The notes beneath the pieces were generated by a model that saw only the letters and a program-made list of their open reading frames with translations, was not told where the DNA came from and did not search any database. DNA of 64,000 nucleotides. Origin: a virus. The stretch covers positions 1-64,000 of IMG/VR virus record IMGVR_UViG_3300042090_002597; one strand, written 5' to 3'. The translations under genes and the position numbers were made by a program. Positions within the stretch are counted from its first letter, which is position 1. Every line of letters starts with the position of its first letter. Shown here piece by piece: positions 1 through 19,839 of the stretch.

Positions 1-1184
1 ACCGAAGTGGCCACAGTGTCGCCGATGTTGGAACCTGTGAAGCCCCGGCGCCACATGCCGTACGGAGCACTGGACGCGGTCTCGCAGTGCTGCGCCATCA
101 AGGCTTGGACCGCGGTGGAGTTGCTGTCGCAGAATACGGTCCATGCGGGAATGGAGAGCGCCGCGGTCAAGCCGCTGGCGTAGCTGGAGTTGGTCGGCGG
201 ACCGCCGGTTGCGCCAGAGAAAAAAGTGGGATTTATGATCGCCAGCGAACCGGAACTCAGACCATTGCCCGGTCCGCCATACGTAGGCACACCGGTGCCG
301 CTGACCGCAGTCACCAGGCCGCCCGTAAAATTGTTAAACCAATAGATTATCTCATTTACATATGCGGTCACCGCTTTTGGAGCACCATATCCGCTCGCCA
401 CAGTGATGTTTCCGGTTGCGGAATCCAGCAAAGTGCACGGAAGAGTACCGTTAGTGGCGGATATGAGCGTGGCGAAATAATTGCCCGTTCCGTTAAGATA
501 TTCGGCCAGAAGCGACACAGTGGAGTATCCACCGGAACCTATGTTCACGGAAATGGATTCACCCTGAACAGGGCTTGTCACCGAGAACGTCGGTGTTGAG
601 CCGGACGCTATGATCGCATACGGAATCGTGGTGCCTGTGTAAGCGCCGGAATACGAAAATTCGAAAGGCCAGTTCAGGTTATTCCCGCTTACCTGATTAC
701 CGCCGTAGTTATCCGTCAGCGTGATATTTCGCAAAAAACCATTGATTACGCTGGACGACGAAAAATTCCCTATGCCGATCTGGCATGTGATCTGATTGGA
801 TGGCGGTCCGTAGAGCGCCGAAGTCAGGTTTATGAGCCCACTGCTCGCCCCGCCTGATCCCGTGCTGTTCAGTGTCAATTGCGATTGCGTGTTGCTGCTC
901 ACGTCCATGAACGTGATCAGCTGCGCTCCGTTTACGGCCGGCGACGGGTTAGCCATGAAAGGCACGTAGGCAGCCGCCGGGCCTCCCCGAAGTGCCGAAA
1001 GCAAATTCTGCGGGTTGACATAGGTGTTTGCCGTAAAGGGTTTCGGTCCCCAACCATAGCCGAGGAACAGCAGCGGCGGAGTGGTCGGAGGCGTGTTGGG
1101 GCCCGCATTCGCCACGTTGTCCGCGTAGTAGGCACCCGGTAGCGAAATATAGGCGCCGTCAAAGGTGATTCCCTGTTGGGGCAT
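1..1184 (-). CDS. Tail sheath protein paralog 2 (runs off the window start)
   Basis: ATG at 1184. About 880-1184 is near-identical to 2716-3019, and 1-229 is near-identical to 1878-2106 of the adjacent sheath gene. Both ends are in the same frame; the middle is diverged. Absent from the ORF track because it is truncated. Confidence 0.8.
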   Translation of the reverse strand, partial: MPQQGITFDGAYISLPGAYYADNVANAGPNTPPTTPPLLFLGYGWGPKPFTANTYVNPQNLLSALRGGPAAAYVPFMANPSPAVNGAQLITFMDVSSNTQSQLTLNSTGSGGASSGLINLTSALYGPPSNQITCQIGIGNFSSSSVINGFLRNITLTDNYGGNQVSGNNLNWPFEFSYSGAYTGTTIPYAIIASGSTPTFSVTSPVQGESISVNIGSGGYSTVSLLAEYLNGTGNYFATLISATNGTLPCTLLDSATGNITVASGYGAPKAVTAYVNEIIYWFNNFTGGLVTAVSGTGVPTYGGPGNGLSSGSLAIINPTFFSGATGGPPTNSSYASGLTAALSIPAWTVFCDSNSTAVQALMAQHCETASSAPYGMWRRGFTGSNIGDTVATS

Positions 1185-8628: not shown

Positions 8629-9543
8629 CTACGTATCCGTGATCGTCTCGGTGTCCTGAACCACTTCCAGGTTCACATTGATCCGCTCGATCAGATTGAA
8701 CCCGGTGAGGATTGTTACATCAAACACACCCTCCAGGTCAAACATGACGTCGGCCCAGTAGAAACCCGGCATCTGGCCAGTGAACTCATCGTGGGTGGTG
8801 CCTGATGTCGCCTGGAAAGAATGCCGGATATTCTGTCCAATCTGAGAGAACAAGGTGGCTTTCAGTGCCCGAAAAGCCATGAGCAGCGTGTCGCGATAGA
8901 AGTCCCGCTCATCCGCATTCTGACTGAACACACTGATCCGCCAGACCCGTCTTGCCCAACCCGGCAGCGTCCACAGATTGTCCGGTTTCGTAACCAGGAC
9001 AACATCCTGACCAATCATCGTATCGTTCTGTTGGAACAAATCCAGATTGACGACAATGAACGGTGTCGCTGCCAGACCGCCCTGCGGCATTTTTGTGCTG
9101 ACCTGAACCGGCGCTACCGCTACACCTGCTGGTATAGGAGCGTTATCGCAAGCCGCCTGGAGAAGGCGAATCAACAGCTGCGACAGCCCATCTGGCGTCG
9201 TAACTATTGACCCTGCGGGTGTAATTGGTCCGATTTGAGTAGTGCCAGTCGTATCAGTGGTCCGCCACACATACTGAAGAGTAGAATCCAAAGGCTGCGA
9301 AGACGTGCTTGGCCCGTCGCCAACGTCTGCCCAAATAGGAAGAGGCGTGCCGCTGTATATTTGAGTGAACGTGCCGAGTCCTGTAACGCCGGATACCGCC
9401 CGGGAGAGCGTCATCAAAGTAACCCCAGACGGCGGCGAAAAATTGCCTTGATCAGCGCCATAGAACTGTAGAAGCACGGCTCCGCCTACCGGTAGCGGAC
9501 TCGCAACAACAGGAGGGCCGGACCCACTCATTTGCTGAACCAA
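8629..9543 (-). CDS. Putative neck/tail-completion protein
   Basis: 304 aa, located between the head-tail adaptor genes and the sheath; the true start may be the ATG a few codons downstream. Confidence 0.55.
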   Translation of the reverse strand: MVQQMSGSGPPVVASPLPVGGAVLLQFYGADQGNFSPPSGVTLMTLSRAVSGVTGLGTFTQIYSGTPLPIWADVGDGPSTSSQPLDSTLQYVWRTTDTTGTTQIGPITPAGSIVTTPDGLSQLLIRLLQAACDNAPIPAGVAVAPVQVSTKMPQGGLAATPFIVVNLDLFQQNDTMIGQDVVLVTKPDNLWTLPGWARRVWRISVFSQNADERDFYRDTLLMAFRALKATLFSQIGQNIRHSFQATSGTTHDEFTGQMPGFYWADVMFDLEGVFDVTILTGFNLIERINVNLEVVQDTETITDT

Positions 9544-9584
9544 AATCCTCTTGACTTACGAAACACAGAGTAGCACGTTAACAG

Positions 9585-9655
9585 CATCCGGCGCTGCCAA
9601 GCGTAGTACTGTACGGTAAAGTATGGTCCGGTCAAGCACCGCAAGCCAAGGTTTT
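9585..9655 (+). ncRNA. NGY-NN pentamer tract A (putative guide RNA)
   Basis: ggc-gc tgc-ca agc-gt agt-ac tgt-ac ggt-aa agt-at ggt-cc ggt-ca agc-ac cgc-aa gcc-aa ggtttt; a TTGACT -35-like box lies at 9551. Confidence 0.8.
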
Positions 9656-9874
9656 TCAGGCAGCCGATTTCAGTTTTACGCCGCCTTCCACAAACTCGAC
9701 GCCCGCTCGCTCCAGCGCACTGCGGATTTTTTCAGCAGTGCTAACCCGGGCGTCCCGCGCTCCACCTTCAAATAGTTTTACGGTGATCTCGGCCACACCG
9801 CTCTGCGCGGCGAGGTCCGACTGACGAATCCCCAGCAGCGCCCGAGCAGCTCTGACTTGTCCTGCGGTTAGCAT
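9656..9874 (-). CDS. XRE/Cro-family HTH transcriptional regulator
   Basis: MLTAGQVRAARALLGIRQSDLAAQSGV...ALERAGVEF is a classic alphaproteobacterial XRE sequence; transcribed divergently from the Cas7-like gene. Confidence 0.9.
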   Translation of the reverse strand: MLTAGQVRAARALLGIRQSDLAAQSGVAEITVKLFEGGARDARVSTAEKIRSALERAGVEFVEGGVKLKSAA

Positions 9875-9929
9875 ATTAGGGACATACCACAGCGGCTCCG
9901 CAAAATACAACTGCGTAGTAAAAACATAC

Positions 9930-9958
9930 TTGACGTATCGTAAATCATTGTCTATAGA
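9930..9958 (+). promoter_or_regulatory. Sigma70-type promoter for tract B and the Cas7-like gene
   Basis: TTGACG-17 nt-TATAGA directly upstream of tract B. Confidence 0.65.
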
Positions 9959-9962
9959 TGTC

Positions 9963-10027
9963 AGTAGCGCGTCGTGACGCGTTGCTAGGCCATGCAGCGT
10001 GACGCTCTGCTTCGCAAACCAAGGAGT
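9963..10027 (+). ncRNA. NGY-NN pentamer tract B (5' leader of the Cas7-like gene)
   Basis: 11 consecutive NGY-NN units (9963-10017), then ACCAAGGAG, which overlaps the RBS. Confidence 0.75.
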
Positions 10028-10032
10028 TAGGT

Positions 10033-10620
10033 ATGAAAATCCATGTGACGATTGAGGGCACTACCCCTCTTCTGATGAACCGTTTCACCGAGCAGAATGA
10101 GGTAGCCCTTTCCAGCGGCACTAGTGCCTCATTCAAAGGCAGTCGAGGCACACCGCGGGAGCAGGCAACACCGAAATGCTACGCAGACGAAAATGGCATG
10201 CTGTATATCCCCGGTCCGAACATCTTCGCCACCATTATCGCAGCGGGCACCTTCCACAAGGCGGGTAAGTCGAAGTTGACCACCATGAAGTCCAGTCTCA
10301 TTCCGGCCGGGCTGTTAGTTGAGGACTTGGTCTGTTCGCTCAACACCGACAAGTGGGAGGTGGACAGTCGCTCGGTGGTGATTCCCAGCACCGGCGGTCG
10401 CGTGATGTGCCACCGGCCGCGAGTGGATCACTGGTCATGTTCGTTCACTCCGGATGTCGACGGCACCATGTTTGACCCGTCCCTGATCCGCGCCGTAATT
10501 GACGACGCCGGGAAGAAGGTGGGTCTGGGCGACTACCGTCCGGCACGCAAAGGTCCGTTTGGTCGTTTCGTAGTCAAGACGTGGGCTGTCGAGGATATCA
10601 AGTTGAAGAAGGTTGCATAA
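10033..10620 (+). CDS. Stand-alone Cas7/RAMP-superfamily RNA-binding protein
   Basis: 195 aa; N-terminal beta strand (I.V.IEG.TPLLM), YIPG..I helix motif and C-terminal glycine-rich loop GLGDYRP..KGPFGRF typical of RAMP/Cas7. No other cas genes and no CRISPR array nearby. Confidence 0.8.
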   Translation: MKIHVTIEGTTPLLMNRFTEQNEVALSSGTSASFKGSRGTPREQATPKCYADENGMLYIPGPNIFATIIAAGTFHKAGKSKLTTMKSSLIPAGLLVEDLVCSLNTDKWEVDSRSVVIPSTGGRVMCHRPRVDHWSCSFTPDVDGTMFDPSLIRAVIDDAGKKVGLGDYRPARKGPFGRFVVKTWAVEDIKLKKVA

Positions 10621-10625
10621 TATGG

Positions 10626-10706
10626 CGTGTTGTTCTTCCTAAAGTTGCTGTGCCACGTCAGGCGTCGCACCGTAGGGTTTTGTTAGGCAGTGCAAAGCAA
10701 GGTTTT
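10626..10706 (+). ncRNA. NGY-NN pentamer tract C
   Basis: 12 uninterrupted NGY-NN units from 10646, ending TGCAA AGCAA GGTTTT. Confidence 0.8.
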
Positions 10707-10723
10707 AGTTTATTACATTTTAG

Positions 10724-10784
10724 CGCATAGCGAAGTGGTGTATTGTCCTGTTTCGCAACGCACGGTGGTGTAGCGCAAGGTTTT
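10724..10784 (+). ncRNA. NGY-NN pentamer tract D
   Basis: 12 of 12 units fit NGY-NN, ending CGCAA GGTTTT; an AT-rich linker separates it from tract C. Confidence 0.8.
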
Positions 10785-10791
10785 AATTTAT

Positions 10792-10873
10792 AGCAGTATA
10801 CGGCCCTGCGCGGTTACGCGCGGTCCAGTGCAGCGCACTACTGCCTGGCGCTGTATAGCTTGGCGAGGTTTTT
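10792..10873 (+). ncRNA. NGY-NN pentamer tract E
   Basis: 14 of 16 units fit NGY-NN, ending GGCGA GGTTTTT. Confidence 0.8.
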
Positions 10874-10882
10874 AATTGCGTA

Positions 10883-11422
10883 TTAAACTAATCCTTGAGC
10901 CATCCCCCTGGCCATCGCAGCTAATGTTCCGGCTGGAGAATAAGCTGGCATGCTCGGGATGATCCAACTGTCCGCCGGAGAGTTCGGTCCGATCGATGCG
11001 AATCCACTGGACGTACCGGCACGCACTTCCGCCCACATCATCGGCCTGGCCGGACCGCCGCCAACACGCTTCAAACCGGTCATGGAGAGATGCTGCGCGC
11101 TGCCGACCGGCCGGTGTATCGGTATGGAGCGGCCGCGCAGCGCGGCAACGGTCTTCATGTCGAACGAACGGTGGCCTTCCTCCAGAAACAGCGCCTCCGG
11201 TGCCACACTTTCGTCCGCCAGGATTGCGACCGTGTTTTCGTCGACCTGCCTGAAACTCAGCGATGAAGCATAGCGGCCGCTTGGATAGAACAGCCGCTTG
11301 CCGTTCAACATGTCCTTGCCGAGCGCGAAATTCATCCATTTCACGAATATCTCTACACCGATCTCGGTGACGAGTTCGGGTGGAAGGTCCGTCTTGATGA
11401 CGAAGACATGCCCCGTGCTCAT
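10883..11422 (-). CDS. Putative neck/virion morphogenesis protein
   Basis: 179 aa; SGRY..S, LEEG...FDMK and WIIP motifs, resembling neck-region proteins of large myoviruses. Confidence 0.55.
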   Translation of the reverse strand: MSTGHVFVIKTDLPPELVTEIGVEIFVKWMNFALGKDMLNGKRLFYPSGRYASSLSFRQVDENTVAILADESVAPEALFLEEGHRSFDMKTVAALRGRSIPIHRPVGSAQHLSMTGLKRVGGGPARPMMWAEVRAGTSSGFASIGPNSPADSWIIPSMPAYSPAGTLAAMARGMAQGLV

Positions 11423-11439
11423 GCTTGAACTCTAGTTCG

Positions 11440-11550
11440 GGTAGTGCTACTTCTCGCATTGTGTTGCTTGGTGCTGCTGCGCCCGGTGTCGCAGGGTACA
11501 GCGTTGTTAGGCGGAGCCGAGCGCCGCACTGTAGTGCAATGCAAGGTTTT
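11440..11550 (+). ncRNA. NGY-NN pentamer tract F
   Basis: 21 of 22 units fit NGY-NN, ending TGCAA TGCAA GGTTTT; lies intergenically between two minus-strand neck genes, with TTGAAC at 11425. Confidence 0.8.
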
Positions 11551-11552
11551 CA

Positions 11553-12428
11553 TTACGGTCCTATTTTAGCACTGCCAACCATTACAGTGTACGGCCGCGC
11601 GGTGCCGCCGACCTGCACCGAGCCCGGCGCCGACTGGGTTACGCCGCGCTGCCTCGTCCAGAAGTCCAGCGACTGCAGCCGCCAGCGCTTCGGCTCATTG
11701 GCCATGCCGCCACCGAAAGCGCGCGTATGCGGCAGGCCGCCCGCGGCGCGGAACACCACATAGATCGGCGATGCCTGAAACTCGACCATGTAGTTGGTGC
11801 CTACCGGATAGCCGCCGATTCTCACCGTCGGACCGTCTGACGAATAGTTCTCGACCGGTACCACTGCGTTGCTGACCGGATCCCATACCGTCACCGCACC
11901 CTGCGGCTCGATCTGCAAATTCTGCTGGTACGGCAGGTTCTCTTTCACACCCACCTGCAGCACTGCGGTGTAGCGGATCAGCGAATCGACCGGCACAAAT
12001 TGATCATTGGTGGATGCGTTCTGCCAAATATTCGTCGGCTGGCCAGGATCGCCGACCGGCAGAGTGGGGTTCCAGTAAGGCACCGTCAACGAGGGTTCGG
12101 CGGTCTGCCACATGCCGTACGATTCGTTCATCCGCACACCCGGCTCGTCGGGGGTGGGCGAGACGTGCATGAAGGTAATTAGCACCTTGGCCGGAATGGA
12201 AGGCGGATCCCAGTAAGTGCCAACACCACCGCACTGGGTGCAGTTGCGCTGCGCCGAGCCCAGTTGCGGTAGTTGTCCGTTGGCGCCGCTGCCGGCGTAC
12301 ACGCACGGGCATGTGTGCGATTTCAGCCAGGAGCAGCGTTGCCCATGGGTCGCGATCAATGCCTCGAATGCCCCCGGCGGAAGGGCTTTCAGAGTCGGCG
12401 GAATGAATGAACCTGCGAACGCGCTCAT
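11553..12428 (-). CDS. Putative head-closure/neck protein with zinc-binding motif
   Basis: 291 aa; F..LI..HG...W.KS..CPC...C..C.G.G pattern. Confidence 0.6.
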   Translation of the reverse strand: MSAFAGSFIPPTLKALPPGAFEALIATHGQRCSWLKSHTCPCVYAGSGANGQLPQLGSAQRNCTQCGGVGTYWDPPSIPAKVLITFMHVSPTPDEPGVRMNESYGMWQTAEPSLTVPYWNPTLPVGDPGQPTNIWQNASTNDQFVPVDSLIRYTAVLQVGVKENLPYQQNLQIEPQGAVTVWDPVSNAVVPVENYSSDGPTVRIGGYPVGTNYMVEFQASPIYVVFRAAGGLPHTRAFGGGMANEPKRWRLQSLDFWTRQRGVTQSAPGSVQVGGTARPYTVMVGSAKIGP

Positions 12429-17658: not shown

Positions 17659-19839
17659 TTACGCCGCGGCCCGTAGAATATCCTGCGCCGCCGGGGCAAG
17701 GCCCGCGATGGCCGTGTCGACGATGTTCTGCGGCAGGCCCATACTGAGCATGCCGAGCGCATCCATAGCCTTGTCGCGATCGTGCGCGCTGATCCGGCCT
17801 TCCTGCACGCCGAGGTTCAGCAGACCTTCCTTCGACACCGCCTGGCCCTTGAACAGAGCCGCCACCGGCGGCTGCGCGTTCGGCGTGCCATCGTCGCGGC
17901 TCTGGTTGCCGACGATGCTGAGCAGCTTCTGCACATCCGCCGTCAGCAGCGCATAGCCGCTGTTGGCCTTCTCCAGCGCCGAAGCCATCTCCTGCGCCGC
18001 TTTCGCAAGCTGCGCCTGATCCGGCGAGGCGGCAGCGGCCGCCGGGGTGGCGGATTTGCCGGAGCCTTCCTTCATCTGCTTGTGGTCCGGCCACTTGTCC
18101 TGGTTCTTGGCCTTGTTCTCTTTCAGGGCCTTGGACACCGTGCCGAGGGTCTTCTCGATCGCGAGGCTGCTCGGACCGGTCTTGCCACCGCGCAGCGACT
18201 TCGCCACCGCGTAGTGCGCGCGGGCCTTGGCCAGCCGGGCCGACGCGAGCTTGTGCTGGCGGACGCCGGCGTTCATCAGACCATCGGCCATGGCGTCCTG
18301 CGCTTTGCGCACCGCGTCGCGGGCGAGCTTGATCAGGCCCTTGGCGATCAGACGCTCGCGTGCCGCGGCCTTGCGGACGGCCTTCGCAGCGTCGTCGTCC
18401 TCGTCTTCGTCGTCATCCTCGTCTTCGTTTTCGTTGACGATTTCGATATCGGTGCCGCCGCCGGACTCGGTCTGCTCGGCCTCGTCATCTTCCTCGTCTT
18501 CGTCTTCCTCGTCGTCCTTGCCCGATTCGGATTCCTTGTCGTCGTCCTTATCGTCTTCCTTGTCCGCCTTGGCGATCTTGCCGCCCGCGGCCTTCAGGAT
18601 GGCGGGGATCGCGCCGGCCATGGCTTTCGCCACCGCCGCCGAAACCGCCTTGTCGATCGCCTTCGTGTCCATGGCCGGCATCGCGGCGGTGGACAGTGCG
18701 AGTTCCATCGTGCTCATGCGCGTGTCCTGCGCCTTCAGCACCGCACCCATCTGGCGCAGCGACTTCATCATGTGCTTGTGCGCGGAAACCATGCGGCCCA
18801 GCATCTCGGTGGCGCGCTCGACACCGGCCTGCGGCGCATGCTCGGAATACTCGCCTTCCATCTTCTCGGCGCCGAAACCGGCCGCGTCCTGCGGCGGACC
18901 GACGTTCACCTTGCCCGGAGGCGTGTGGCTTTTCGGACCGTGCGCGCGGACGGTTTCCAGCTTGTCGGTGCGGTCGCCGTCGAAAATGTCCTCGACCTTG
19001 CCGATCTGCTCGTGATCGTCGCCCTCGTGCAGCAGATCCACGGCCTTGCCGAGTTCCGCGCTTGCCTGGAGACCGGCTTCCTTCAGCATCTCGGCTCGCT
19101 CGGCGGGAGTGGACGCACCCCAGGCCTTGGAGAGCCAGCGGTTGAGCATGCCCGGCGCCTTGGGCGATGCGACGTCGGTCTGCTGAATGGTCATGGAACC
19201 TCCGGAGGCATTTGACGACTTGATGGAATGGCAAGTGCACGGATTATGATCCGTGGTACAGCCGCACAGCGATGCCGTAAATTTAACGGAACGTGCGTAC
19301 GCAAGCGGTTGTTTTTTGGCTTTTTCACTGAAAAGCCATTTCTTGAATTCCTCGAAAGACATCTGTACCGAGGCGCCCGCGCGCTCGTGGCCGCGGCCGT
19401 CGGAAAATCCGTCCAGATAGGCTTGCGCCGCTGTCCGCGAATCCGGAAATCCGAGCAAGGTCTTGTGCTCGTCGAATTTCCGGCTGTCCGCGTCCACCTG
19501 GTCGACCACCCATACGGGAAGCAGATGCGCCTGGTGCGCTTCGGGTCCGATGTAGCAATCCACATGGTCGCCGTCGGCACCTTCTGTCCGCTTCACATAG
19601 CCGTAATGGGCAGGCATCTGTACGGACCAGGGCGTGCCGTCCGGCGCCGTGCCGGAGCGGGTGCGGCCTTGCGGGGTTTCGATGGTAATGTCCAGACCGC
19701 CGATGATGACGTGCGCTTTCTGGTAGTTCCCGGCTTCGGCCTGCTCGGGAGACGGATCCCAGATGCGCCGCGCCGCGCGGTCCAGATCGCCCGGCGCGGT
19801 TACTTCTACGGGATTATCGCGATGGCCGGGGTGCGCCAT
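17659..19839 (-). CDS. Scaffold-like protein with N-terminal inorganic-pyrophosphatase-like domain
   Basis: GNY.K.H, IETP.G..RSG, HYGY...T.GADGDHVDC and FDEHK PPase-like motifs; then an acidic, Ala-rich coiled coil. Internal ATG at 19194 with GGAGG RBS. Confidence 0.7.
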   Translation of the reverse strand: MAHPGHRDNPVEVTAPGDLDRAARRIWDPSPEQAEAGNYQKAHVIIGGLDITIETPQGRTRSGTAPDGTPWSVQMPAHYGYVKRTEGADGDHVDCYIGPEAHQAHLLPVWVVDQVDADSRKFDEHKTLLGFPDSRTAAQAYLDGFSDGRGHERAGASVQMSFEEFKKWLFSEKAKKQPLAYARSVKFTASLCGCTTDHNPCTCHSIKSSNASGGSMTIQQTDVASPKAPGMLNRWLSKAWGASTPAERAEMLKEAGLQASAELGKAVDLLHEGDDHEQIGKVEDIFDGDRTDKLETVRAHGPKSHTPPGKVNVGPPQDAAGFGAEKMEGEYSEHAPQAGVERATEMLGRMVSAHKHMMKSLRQMGAVLKAQDTRMSTMELALSTAAMPAMDTKAIDKAVSAAVAKAMAGAIPAILKAAGGKIAKADKEDDKDDDKESESGKDDEEDEDEEDDEAEQTESGGGTDIEIVNENEDEDDDEDEDDDAAKAVRKAAARERLIAKGLIKLARDAVRKAQDAMADGLMNAGVRQHKLASARLAKARAHYAVAKSLRGGKTGPSSLAIEKTLGTVSKALKENKAKNQDKWPDHKQMKEGSGKSATPAAAAASPDQAQLAKAAQEMASALEKANSGYALLTADVQKLLSIVGNQSRDDGTPNAQPPVAALFKGQAVSKEGLLNLGVQEGRISAHDRDKAMDALGMLSMGLPQNIVDTAIAGLAPAAQDILRAAA

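What the first reader, a model, noticed from the sequence alone, without database searches (positions are those of the whole stretch)
9551..11552. Stand-alone Cas7/RAMP-like gene with six NGY-NN pentamer RNA tracts: candidate RNA-guided system without a CRISPR array
Seen: a 195-aa RAMP/Cas7-like ORF (10033-10620) and a divergent XRE gene are inserted in the neck-gene cluster, the Cas7-like gene antisense to it. Six plus-strand non-coding tracts surround them (A 9585-9655, B 9963-10027, C 10626-10706, D 10724-10784, E 10792-10873, F 11440-11550). Each is 11-22 five-nt units of a near-invariant NGY triplet plus a variable NN pair. Five end in (A/G)AGGTTTT; B ends in CCAAGGAG. There are no CRISPR repeats and no cas1/2/3/5/6. 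Known: Cas7 subunits polymerise along guide RNA with a fixed nucleotide step. Inference: one protomer binds each pentamer, holding NGY as scaffold and presenting NN for base pairing, giving a minimal programmable ribonucleoprotein filament. I recall a recent description of phage RAMP plus GGY/NN repeat RNAs (called VIPR) but cannot verify it here. This locus uses a relaxed NGY motif.
Basis: partly seen in the sequence, partly recalled or inferred. Interest (0 to 1): 0.97.

Follow-up and report, generated by a model that had tools for sequence, protein, structure and literature searches.

The report
Phage VIPR locus with relaxed repeats
This is a real example of the recently described phage VIPR system (a lone Cas7-like protein plus guide RNAs built from five-base repeats), so the kind is already known, but at least one and probably three of its guides are aimed at rival versions of the phage genes next to its own insertion site.

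Summary
The whole 105.7-kb phage contig has exactly six period-5 NGY/NN tracts. All lie on the + strand within 2 kb of ORF 10033-10620, against about 0.04 expected by chance.

The ORF is a Vipr protein. Its family profile matches the solved SUSP1 Vipr chain (36pp) at E 5e-22 over the full length, and its model (pLDDT 95) has a Cas7/Csm3 fold. This scan has also flagged VIPR on many other genomes. It is therefore a new member of a known kind.

Added here:
- Repeat position 1 is fully degenerate, and the clade has Asn where SUSP1 uses His17 to read G1.
- There is no structured 3' tail, only a short NGCAA-GGUUUU handle.
- A divergent XRE gene is the conserved partner.
- Relatives show an empty site, so the locus is a 1.34-kb cassette.
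- Under the published 1-nt-skip rule, guides A, E and F find their best matches in the three flanking structural genes, in codon register. E's 10-unit core matches a relative's allele 20/20 but the phage's own allele only 17/20.
- A Mesorhizobium relative's guide matches 26/28 the neighbour-gene allele of a prophage with no vipr or XRE nearby.

Expression and binding are untested.

The parts
9590..9656 (+). vrRNA gene A: 12 NGY/NN units plus GGTTTTT. Its end abuts the stop codon of the convergent XRE gene.
   Evidence: best own-genome match lies in the flanking gene at 9073-9108
9656..9874 (-). XRE-type helix-turn-helix gene, the candidate vap accessory. It is divergent from vipr. The ORF list extends it to a TTG at 9910.
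   Evidence: Pfam HTH_3 E 2.7e-4, below the curated cutoff; PHROG transcriptional regulator hits; a homologue in the same divergent position in 9 of 12 distinct related loci
9930..9958 (+). Promoter-like site TTGACG-17-TATAGA, which would start transcription at the first unit of tract B. It overlaps a minus-strand promoter-like site (9964 to 9937) for the XRE gene.
   Evidence: read from the sequence; the minus-strand site comes; consensus matches only, not shown to function
9963..10027 (+). Tract B: the leader of the vipr mRNA or an upstream vrRNA. It has 11 NGY/NN units and its terminal CCAAGGAG doubles as the Shine-Dalgarno sequence of vipr.
   Evidence: 9 of 12 distinct homologous loci have a tract directly upstream of vipr ending in GCAAACC(A/T)(A/T)(A/G)G(A/C)GA
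10033..10620 (+). vipr gene: a 195-aa single-RRM RAMP (Cas7-like), homologue of SUSP1 Vipr
10646..10706 (+). vrRNA gene C: 11 clean units plus GGTTTT. An internal GGTTTT at 10676-10681 means it may be two RNAs; two further units lie at 10626-10635.
   Evidence: no target found
10724..10784 (+). vrRNA gene D: 11 perfect units plus GGTTTT
   Evidence: no target found
10792..10873 (+). vrRNA gene E: 15 units plus GGTTTTT. Core units 3-12 lie at 10802-10851.
   Evidence: the core matches L025 20/20 and the own gene 17/20
11440..11550 (+). vrRNA gene F: 21 units plus GGTTTT. It sits alone in the next intergenic gap of the minus-strand structural operon.
   Evidence: near-cognate site immediately 3' at 11551-11613
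9073..9108 (-). Own near-cognate site of guide A inside the 304-aa structural gene (8629-9543). 16/18 NN over units 1-9, with the skip base at the wobble position.
   Evidence: rank 1 in the contig by local score
10910..10954 (-). Own near-cognate site of guide E inside the 179-aa gene (10883-11422). 22/30 overall and 17/20 in the core. One mismatch is a synonymous TTA Leu codon.
11551..11613 (+). Own near-cognate site of guide F, antisense to the last 17 codons plus stop of the 291-aa virion protein gene (11553-12428). It has a perfect six-unit run, with the skip base at the wobble position of the minus-strand gene.
   Evidence: the wobble phase was worked out from the coordinates

Best explanation
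The locus is a VIPR system carried as a 1.34-kb cassette (9544-10882), plus one outlying guide gene (F), inside the structural-gene operon of a 105.7-kb phage. By homology with the solved SUSP1 system, Vipr protomers would polymerise along each vrRNA, one per pentamer. They would hold G2 and Y3 (and, loosely, N1) and present the NN pairs. The filament would then bind double-stranded DNA that matches NN-x-NN-x (the 1-nt skip rule) and block transcription. The likely targets of guides A, E and F are variant alleles of the three structural genes that flank the cassette, carried by related co-infecting phages. The phage's own alleles differ at 2-3 NN positions and would be spared. The divergent XRE protein probably controls the back-to-back promoters. 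Tract B is the vipr leader and may also allow autoregulation. What is shown here: the tracts and their statistics, the protein's fold and homology, the conserved locus architecture, the empty sites in relatives, and the codon-register matches. What is inferred: transcription and 3' ends of the RNAs, filament assembly, DNA binding and silencing, sparing of the phage's own alleles, and the roles of XRE and tract B.
For: Tracts: exactly six in the 105.7-kb contig against about 0.04 expected.
Protein: the family profile matches the PDB chain 36pp 'SUSP1 Vipr protein' at E 5.3e-22 over the full length; the model has pLDDT 94.8 and a Cas7/Csm3 fold.
G2/Y3 contacts named in 10.64898/2026.04.26.720927 are kept (R138 to R128, D177-W178-R179 to D167-Y168-R169). 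The G1 reader H17 aligns to N16.
His-bearing relatives have G1 in 72-100% of units. The Asn clade has 28-82%, and this locus 28%.
Architecture: all 15 homologous loci carry tracts beside vipr, 9 of 12 distinct loci directly upstream of it. 9 of 12 distinct loci have the divergent XRE gene.
Cassette: relatives L018-L026 and L028 have the 291, 179 and 304 genes contiguous, with no vipr or XRE homologue found in them.
Targets: the best own-contig matches of A (rank 1), E (joint rank 1) and F (rank 2) lie in the three flanking genes, all with skip = wobble. E's units 3-12 match the homologous site of metagenomic relative L025 20/20.
Independent case: the downstream guide of a 71%-identical Mesorhizobium system matches 26/28, under the 1-nt skip, codons 4-17 of the homologue of its own neighbouring gene. 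That target sits in a prophage of another Mesorhizobium genome with no vipr or XRE in the fetched locus. It is the only hit in 202 genomes, and the reversed-pattern control gives 0.
No self-target above background elsewhere in the contig.
Against: Perfect full-length targets were not found for any of the six guides. IMG/VR exact scans of F, A and the E core gave 0 hits.
Taken singly, the own-genome scores of A, E and F lie within the range of shuffled guides. The argument rests on their position, their codon register and the L025 match.
Own sites at 80-89% core identity are close to the 0.8 threshold that the third preprint uses to call targets. Some self-repression therefore cannot be excluded.
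Guides B, C and D have no identified target.
A systematic test on 12 related loci could not show flank-directed matches above background.
The host is unknown.
Confidence: 0.85

Rival explanations
1. Self-regulation: the guides act on the phage's own flanking structural genes through imperfect matches, and on the vipr leader (tract B). The cassette would then be a timing device for late-gene expression rather than a weapon.
For: Own sites reach 16/18 (A) and 17/20 (E core), in codon register and right beside the guides. Tract B ends in the vipr Shine-Dalgarno sequence in this locus and in 9 of 12 distinct homologous loci. The leader guide of the Mesorhizobium relative has no target in 202 genomes.
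Against: E matches a relative's allele perfectly in its core but its own allele with three mismatches, one a rare synonymous TTA (2.1% of Leu codons), which looks like escape. The Mesorhizobium guide matches a foreign allele 26/28 but, by my hand count from the sequence printed, its own neighbour only about 20/28. The first preprint reports that perturbing NN pairing abolishes silencing and finds no self-targets at 80% or above.
Confidence: 0.12
2. A decaying or inactive VIPR remnant: the loss of G at repeat position 1 and the lack of a structured tail reflect erosion, and the RNAs no longer assemble filaments.
For: N1 is uniform here, whereas relatives keep some G bias. There is no significant RNA structure and no conserved 40-nt tail. 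Several units are degenerate.
Against: The ORF is intact, and the profile search counts 2,276 family hits at E 0.001 or better, with the G2/Y3 contact residues kept. G2-Y3 is kept in 84 of 93 units. Degenerate units still match the target in register, both in E and in the Mesorhizobium guide. The relaxed motif is shared by a whole clade that has Asn at the G1-reading position.
Confidence: 0.05
3. The tracts are not guide RNAs. They would be DNA-level elements, such as binding sites for the XRE protein or recombination signals, that happen to have a 5-bp period.
For: No transcription data exist. Promoter and terminator calls are weak for most tracts.
Against: All tracts are strand-specific and co-oriented with vipr in all 15 loci. 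They end in a constant handle followed by a U-run. Their NN code matches codon-register targets at 20/20 and 26/28. Homologous tracts were shown to be RNAs bound by Vipr in SUSP1 and P. fulva.
Confidence: 0.02

Closest known systems
VIPR systems (Vipr + vap + vrRNA), reference type II of Escherichia phage SUSP1; bioRxiv 10.64898/2026.04.26.720920, .720927 and 10.64898/2026.10.15.759431
   Same: Homologous single-RRM RAMP (profile E 5e-22 against chain 36pp). Pentamer-repeat guide genes lie upstream and in a downstream array on the vipr strand. The context is a phage. There is no CRISPR array in the 30 kb scanned; cas genes were not looked for. Natural matches obey the 1-nt skip rule with skip = wobble, on either strand. 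There is no self-target at 80% or above over whole guides.
   Different: Repeat position 1 is fully degenerate (NGY, the paper's YNNNG variant), and the G1-reading His is replaced by Asn. No roughly 40-nt pseudoknot tail is present, only 2-3 constant pentamers plus GGUUUU. The partner gene is a divergent upstream XRE HTH, not a downstream co-operonic vap1. The upstream tract abuts the vipr ribosome-binding site. The cassette sits inside the structural operon, and the guides point at alleles of the flanking genes rather than at a satellite or lysogeny regulators. Which of the seven published types it belongs to could not be determined, because the supplementary tables are not held.
Class 1 CRISPR-Cas backbone subunits (Cas7: Csm3, Cmr4, type VII Cas7, Cas7-11)
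   Same: RRM core, glycine-rich loop and thumb. Foldseek E about 1e-6, probability 1.00, TM 0.5-0.57. Polymerisation along a guide RNA with a fixed step.
   Different: No CRISPR array in the 30 kb scanned (cas genes were not looked for), 12-16% sequence identity, a 5-nt step with only 2 nt read per unit, and a viral context.
Homing endonuclease genes and marker exclusion in T-even phages (from my own knowledge, not tested here)
   Same: A small selfish cassette sits between conserved phage genes, and its activity is directed at the cassette-free version of its own neighbourhood in related co-infecting phages. The carrier's flanks are resistant variants.
   Different: No nuclease is present. 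The predicted activity is RNA-guided binding and silencing, not cleavage and repair-mediated copying. The resemblance concerns the logic only and is an inference.

Membership tests
VIPR system | Vipr protein: a minimal RAMP (single RRM, G-loop, thumb) homologous to characterised Vipr proteins | tested here: met
   phmmer against PDB chain 36pp_D 'SUSP1 Vipr protein' gives E 1e-5. A 99-sequence profile gives E 5.3e-22, positions 1-183 against 1-188. AlphaFold2 pLDDT is 94.8 with a Cas7-like fold. The GLGDYRP G-loop and the HRP thumb arginine are conserved.
VIPR system | vrRNA genes: tandem 5-nt units GGY/NN or a related consensus (NNNGG, YNNNG, NNNNG) next to vipr | tested here: met
   Six tracts of 11-22 units of the YNNNG (= NGY/NN) kind, far above chance and the only ones in the contig. 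The same caller recovers four GGY tracts in a SUSP1-like Felixounavirus as a positive control.
VIPR system | Small locus with an accessory (vap) gene, without a CRISPR array or other cas genes | tested here: inconclusive
   A divergent XRE HTH gene is conserved in 9 of 12 distinct loci, and no CRISPR-like array lies in 30 kb. Whether this XRE equals one of the published vap1-6 could not be checked, because no sequences or tables are held. cas genes were not looked for; of the neighbours scanned, two match PHROG structural-protein families (virion protein, tail fibre) and three have no family match.
VIPR system | Guides recognise DNA by the NN-x (1-nt skip) code | tested here: met
   This is natural-target inference only. 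The E core matches L025 20/20 in codon register. A related Mesorhizobium guide matches 26/28, the only hit in 202 genomes, with the reversed control at 0. N1 does not pair with the skip base (3 of 13, chance level, by my hand count of the match against the units). No biochemical test was done.
VIPR system | vrRNAs are expressed as roughly 100-nt RNAs and co-purify with Vipr | not testable with these tools
VIPR type II (SUSP1 clade) | Strict GGY, a conserved roughly 40-nt 3' tail with a pseudoknot, and vap1 downstream of vipr | tested here: not met
   N1 is uniform. Nothing is conserved or structured after GGTTTT (fold z from -0.9 to +0.95). No co-oriented ORF follows vipr; the tracts start 6 nt after its stop. 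Identity to SUSP1-like Vipr proteins is 27-28%.
CRISPR-Cas (class 1) | CRISPR repeat-spacer array plus cas genes (Cas5, Cas6, large subunit, adaptation genes) | tested here: not met
   No array in 30 kb. The only RAMP found is the 195-aa gene. cas genes were not looked for; of the neighbours scanned, two match PHROG structural-protein families and the rest have no family match.

The most novel reading that the evidence does not exclude
The cassette behaves like an RNA-guided, nuclease-free analogue of a homing element. Its guides silence the cassette-free (ancestral) alleles of the very structural genes that flank its insertion site in co-infecting sibling phages, while the linked flanks carry escape substitutions. 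Only genomes or recombinants that inherit cassette and flanks together would then be productive. The lower GC3 of the cassette-proximal gene ends would mark flanks that were co-transferred with it.
Probability: 0.35. Interest if true: 0.8.

Novelty: new member of a known kind. Interest (0 to 1): 0.5.

Why it matters
It confirms that a reader working from raw sequence alone can recognise VIPR loci. It also adds a well-delimited environmental example with a clear empty site. The correlation between His or Asn at the G1-reading position and strict or relaxed repeat position 1 is a testable structure-function lead for re-engineering the scaffold. The tail-less NGCAA-GGUUUU handle suggests that a shorter guide architecture exists than the one studied so far. 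If guides are generally aimed at alleles of the genes flanking their own cassette, VIPR would act as a linkage-based selfish element in phage populations. The main texts of the three preprints do not mention this logic: the words allele and homing are absent from the third, and the parts of the first two that I read do not raise it.

Tried and rejected
1. Exact gapped-pattern scans of IMG/VR for 10-unit windows of guides F and A and for the E core gave 0 hits.
2. An 8-unit window of A gave 9 hits in 5 independent groups. This is about what chance predicts for 16 specified bases, and the shared peptide is forced by the pattern itself, so I rejected them as targets.
3. Our guides against the 15 vipr loci, and the foreign guides against our contig, gave only background.
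4. A systematic test of whether guides of 12 related loci match their own flanks above background was not sensitive enough. Scores of 8-11 compared with 9-15 elsewhere.
5. I considered that N1 pairs with the skip base, which would make a three-base code. I rejected this for the Mesorhizobium match: 3 of 13, chance level, by my hand count of the match against the units.
6. The leader guide of the Mesorhizobium relative has no target in 202 genomes at 2 or fewer mismatches.
7. Rfam gave no match, so there is no hammerhead between the guides.
8. Pfam gave no family for the Vipr ORF.
It would have been the best place to look for A and F targets.
11. The supplementary tables of the first preprint are not held, so the VIPR type could not be assigned.
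12. No complex prediction was run. The protein-protein question is already answered by solved homologous filaments.
Full report
OBSERVATION

With units written N1-G2-Y3-N4-N5 and one register per tract, G2-Y3 is kept in 12/14 (A), 11/13 (B), 14/16 (C), 12/12 (D), 14/16 (E) and 21/22 (F) units. A blind scan of both strands, requiring at least 9 of 10 consecutive units, finds exactly these six tracts in the 64-kb window. The same six are the only ones in the whole 105,740-bp contig, which the tools call a virus record. All are on the + strand. First-order Markov shuffles give a mean of 0.04 tracts.

All six tracts run in register into a constant end. In A, C, D, E and F this end is one to three A-rich units (typically NGCAA) followed by GGTTTT. 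In B it is CGCAA-ACCAA-GGAG followed by the ATG of ORF 10033-10620. No CRISPR-like array lies in the first 30 kb and there is no Rfam family in the region.

THE PROTEIN

Pfam has nothing for the ORF, but it matches phrog_4652 (unknown function) over its full length at E 6e-21. Against PDB sequences its only real hit is chain 36pp_D, 'SUSP1 Vipr protein' (E 1e-5). A profile of 99 diverse homologues raises this to E 5.3e-22 over positions 1-183 against 1-188.

The AlphaFold2 model is confident (pLDDT 94.8, pTM 0.88). Foldseek places it with the Cas7 backbone subunits Csm3, type VII Cas7 and Cas7-11 (E about 1e-6, probability 1.00).

The family is large. A word-indexed search found 1,258 proteins, and an exhaustive search of 50%-identity representatives counted 2,276 proteins at E 0.001 or better.

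WHAT IS KNOWN

VIPR systems are described in bioRxiv 10.64898/2026.04.26.720920. They consist of a Vipr RAMP, vap accessory genes and vrRNAs of alternating GGY/NN, and they recognise dsDNA by an NN-x '1-nt skip' code. The paper defines seven types and reports targets in competing phages and satellites. Its methods already list alternative NNNGG, YNNNG and NNNNG repeats.

The structures are in 10.64898/2026.04.26.720927. One protomer binds each repeat. G1 is read by H17 and D177, G2 by R138 and W178, and Y3 by a pocket that includes R179.

A third preprint, 10.64898/2026.10.15.759431, covers satellite competition and solo vrRNAs. This scan has also met VIPR on many other genomes. The kind is therefore known.

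WHAT IS PARTICULAR HERE

(1) Scaffold. N1 is uniform in this locus (A .20, C .24, G .28, T .28). In a SUSP1-like Felixounavirus and in Pseudomonas phage LESphi2, which both keep the His, G1 is 72% and 100%. In the clade around this protein, which has Asn at the aligned position (motif LLMNRF), G1 is 28-82%. The residues that hold G2 and Y3 are kept (R128, D167-Y168-R169). The link between His-to-Asn and relaxed N1 is a correlation plus structural inference, not a test.

(2) Tail. Nothing conserved or structured follows GGTTTT (z-scores from -0.9 to +0.95). In the three informative guide-target alignments the last two to three units never match. I therefore read NGCAA-GGUUUU as a short 3' handle that replaces the roughly 40-nt pseudoknot tail of the SUSP1 clade.

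(3) Architecture. All 15 homologous loci carry pentamer tracts beside vipr on its strand: 9 of the 12 distinct loci have one directly upstream that ends in the ribosome-binding site, and nearly all have one to seven downstream ending in GCAAGG. Nine of the 12 distinct loci also have an XRE homologue divergently upstream.
   - In this locus a promoter-like TTGACG-17-TATAGA (9930-9958) would start transcription at the first unit of B.
   - A minus-strand promoter-like site for the XRE gene overlaps it.
   - These are consensus matches only.

(4) A cassette with empty sites. Three IMG/VR relatives and ten metagenomic relatives of the flanking genes were fetched. In ten of them, where the contigs reach far enough, the 291-, 179- and 304-aa genes lie directly one after another, and no vipr or XRE homologue was found in them. 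In L018 the 179 and 304 genes even overlap. Segment 9544-10882 is thus a 1.34-kb insertion, and tract F occupies the next intergenic gap. The 179-aa ORF is a conserved phage gene, not part of the system.

TARGETS

Under the published code there is no self-target above background elsewhere in the contig. A local score ranks the best sites in the whole contig as follows:
- Guide A: rank 1 at 9073-9108, in the 304-aa gene, with 16/18 over units 1-9.
- Guide E: joint rank 1 at 10910-10954, in the 179-aa gene, with 17/20 over units 3-12.
- Guide F: rank 2 at 11551-11613, antisense to the last 17 codons and the stop of the 291-aa gene, with a perfect six-unit run.

All three sites are in codon register with the skipped base at the wobble position. 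Each score alone lies within the range of shuffled guides. That three of six guides put their top sites into the roughly 2.5 kb that flank the cassette, all in register, is unlikely by chance. My rough estimate is 2e-3 before counting register.

The decisive piece is guide E. Its units 3-12 match the homologous site of relative L025 20/20 (codons PAYAPAATLA). The same peptide occurs in homologue P0315. The phage's own allele differs by Ser for Ala, Gly for Ala and a synonymous TTA. TTA makes up only 2.1% of Leu codons in this genome.

GC3 also falls in the cassette-proximal ends of the flanking genes. This is suggestive only.

AN INDEPENDENT CASE IN THE SAME CLADE

I took the downstream guide of a Mesorhizobium prophage system whose Vipr is 71% identical and searched it as a 14-unit NN-x pattern, allowing up to 3 mismatches, in 202 Mesorhizobium genomes. 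It gave a single hit with 26/28 NN matched, and none for the reversed control. I estimate about 1e-4 hits expected at 2 mismatches or fewer.

The hit covers codons 4-17 of a gene beginning MAKTITQRIALDGG. That gene is the homologue of the 902-aa gene immediately downstream of the guide's own locus. The fetched locus around the hit has no vipr or XRE. The guide's own neighbour matches only about 20/28, by my hand count from the sequence. Degenerate units still matched in register, and N1 did not pair with the skip base (3 of 13, also a hand count).

INTERPRETATION

Best reading: a functional VIPR cassette whose guides A, E and F silence rival alleles of the genes next to it in related phages. 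The XRE protein would control the divergent promoters, and tract B would serve as leader and possibly as an autoregulatory site.

Rivals:
- Self-regulation of the phage's own late genes. The own sites are near the 0.8 identity that the third preprint uses as a calling threshold.
- A decaying remnant.
- Non-RNA DNA elements.

Guides B, C and D remain orphans.

LIMITS
- There are no expression or binding data.
- The host is unknown.
- No perfect full-length target was found.
- The VIPR type is unassigned because the supplements are not held.
I reached the same sites computationally, before reading those notes. I added the ranks, the empty sites, the L025 match and the Mesorhizobium case.

VERDICT

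This is a new member of a known kind (VIPR), with variant features that the first paper's methods already hint at. The flank-directed targeting is the part worth following up.

Noticed in passing
window 1-50 and 1877-1926: The first 50 bases of the contig recur at 1877.
   Followed up: no
window 10674-10681: Tract C contains an internal AGGGTTTT in register. It may encode two RNAs: a roughly 6-unit guide and a very short second one.
   Followed up: partly
window 10886-10975, 11556-11575 and 9100-9543: GC3 drops in the cassette-proximal ends of the flanking genes: 0.43-0.53 against 0.6-0.93 in the 179-aa gene, and 0.4-0.67 in the first half of the 304-aa gene. Two of the genome's rare TTA codons sit in the last 13 codons of the 179-aa gene.
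   Followed up: partly
L010:3800-5358 (IMGVR_UViG_3300009168_000029): A 69%-identical Vipr has one long upstream tract and an array of seven downstream guides. Each ends in GGCAAGG followed by about 7 A/T-rich bases (mostly ATACTTT), and N1 is restricted to G or T in 85% of units.
   Followed up: no
L018:11476-11486: In the cassette-free relative the 179-aa and 304-aa gene homologues overlap, as in translational coupling. The cassette in this phage therefore splits a tightly coupled gene pair, and late-operon transcription would have to read through it antisense to vipr and guides A-E.
   Followed up: no
L031:1638-3284 (Escherichia phage allfine, MN850633.1): This Felixounavirus with a SUSP1-like Vipr has two upstream and two downstream GGY tracts, each followed by one of two conserved tails of roughly 45 nt. 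It served as the positive control for the tract caller.
   Followed up: yes
window 18382-18574: A 9-nt-period direct repeat family (GTC/TTC/CTC-rich) lies inside a coding region, probably an acidic low-complexity protein segment on the opposite strand.
   Followed up: no
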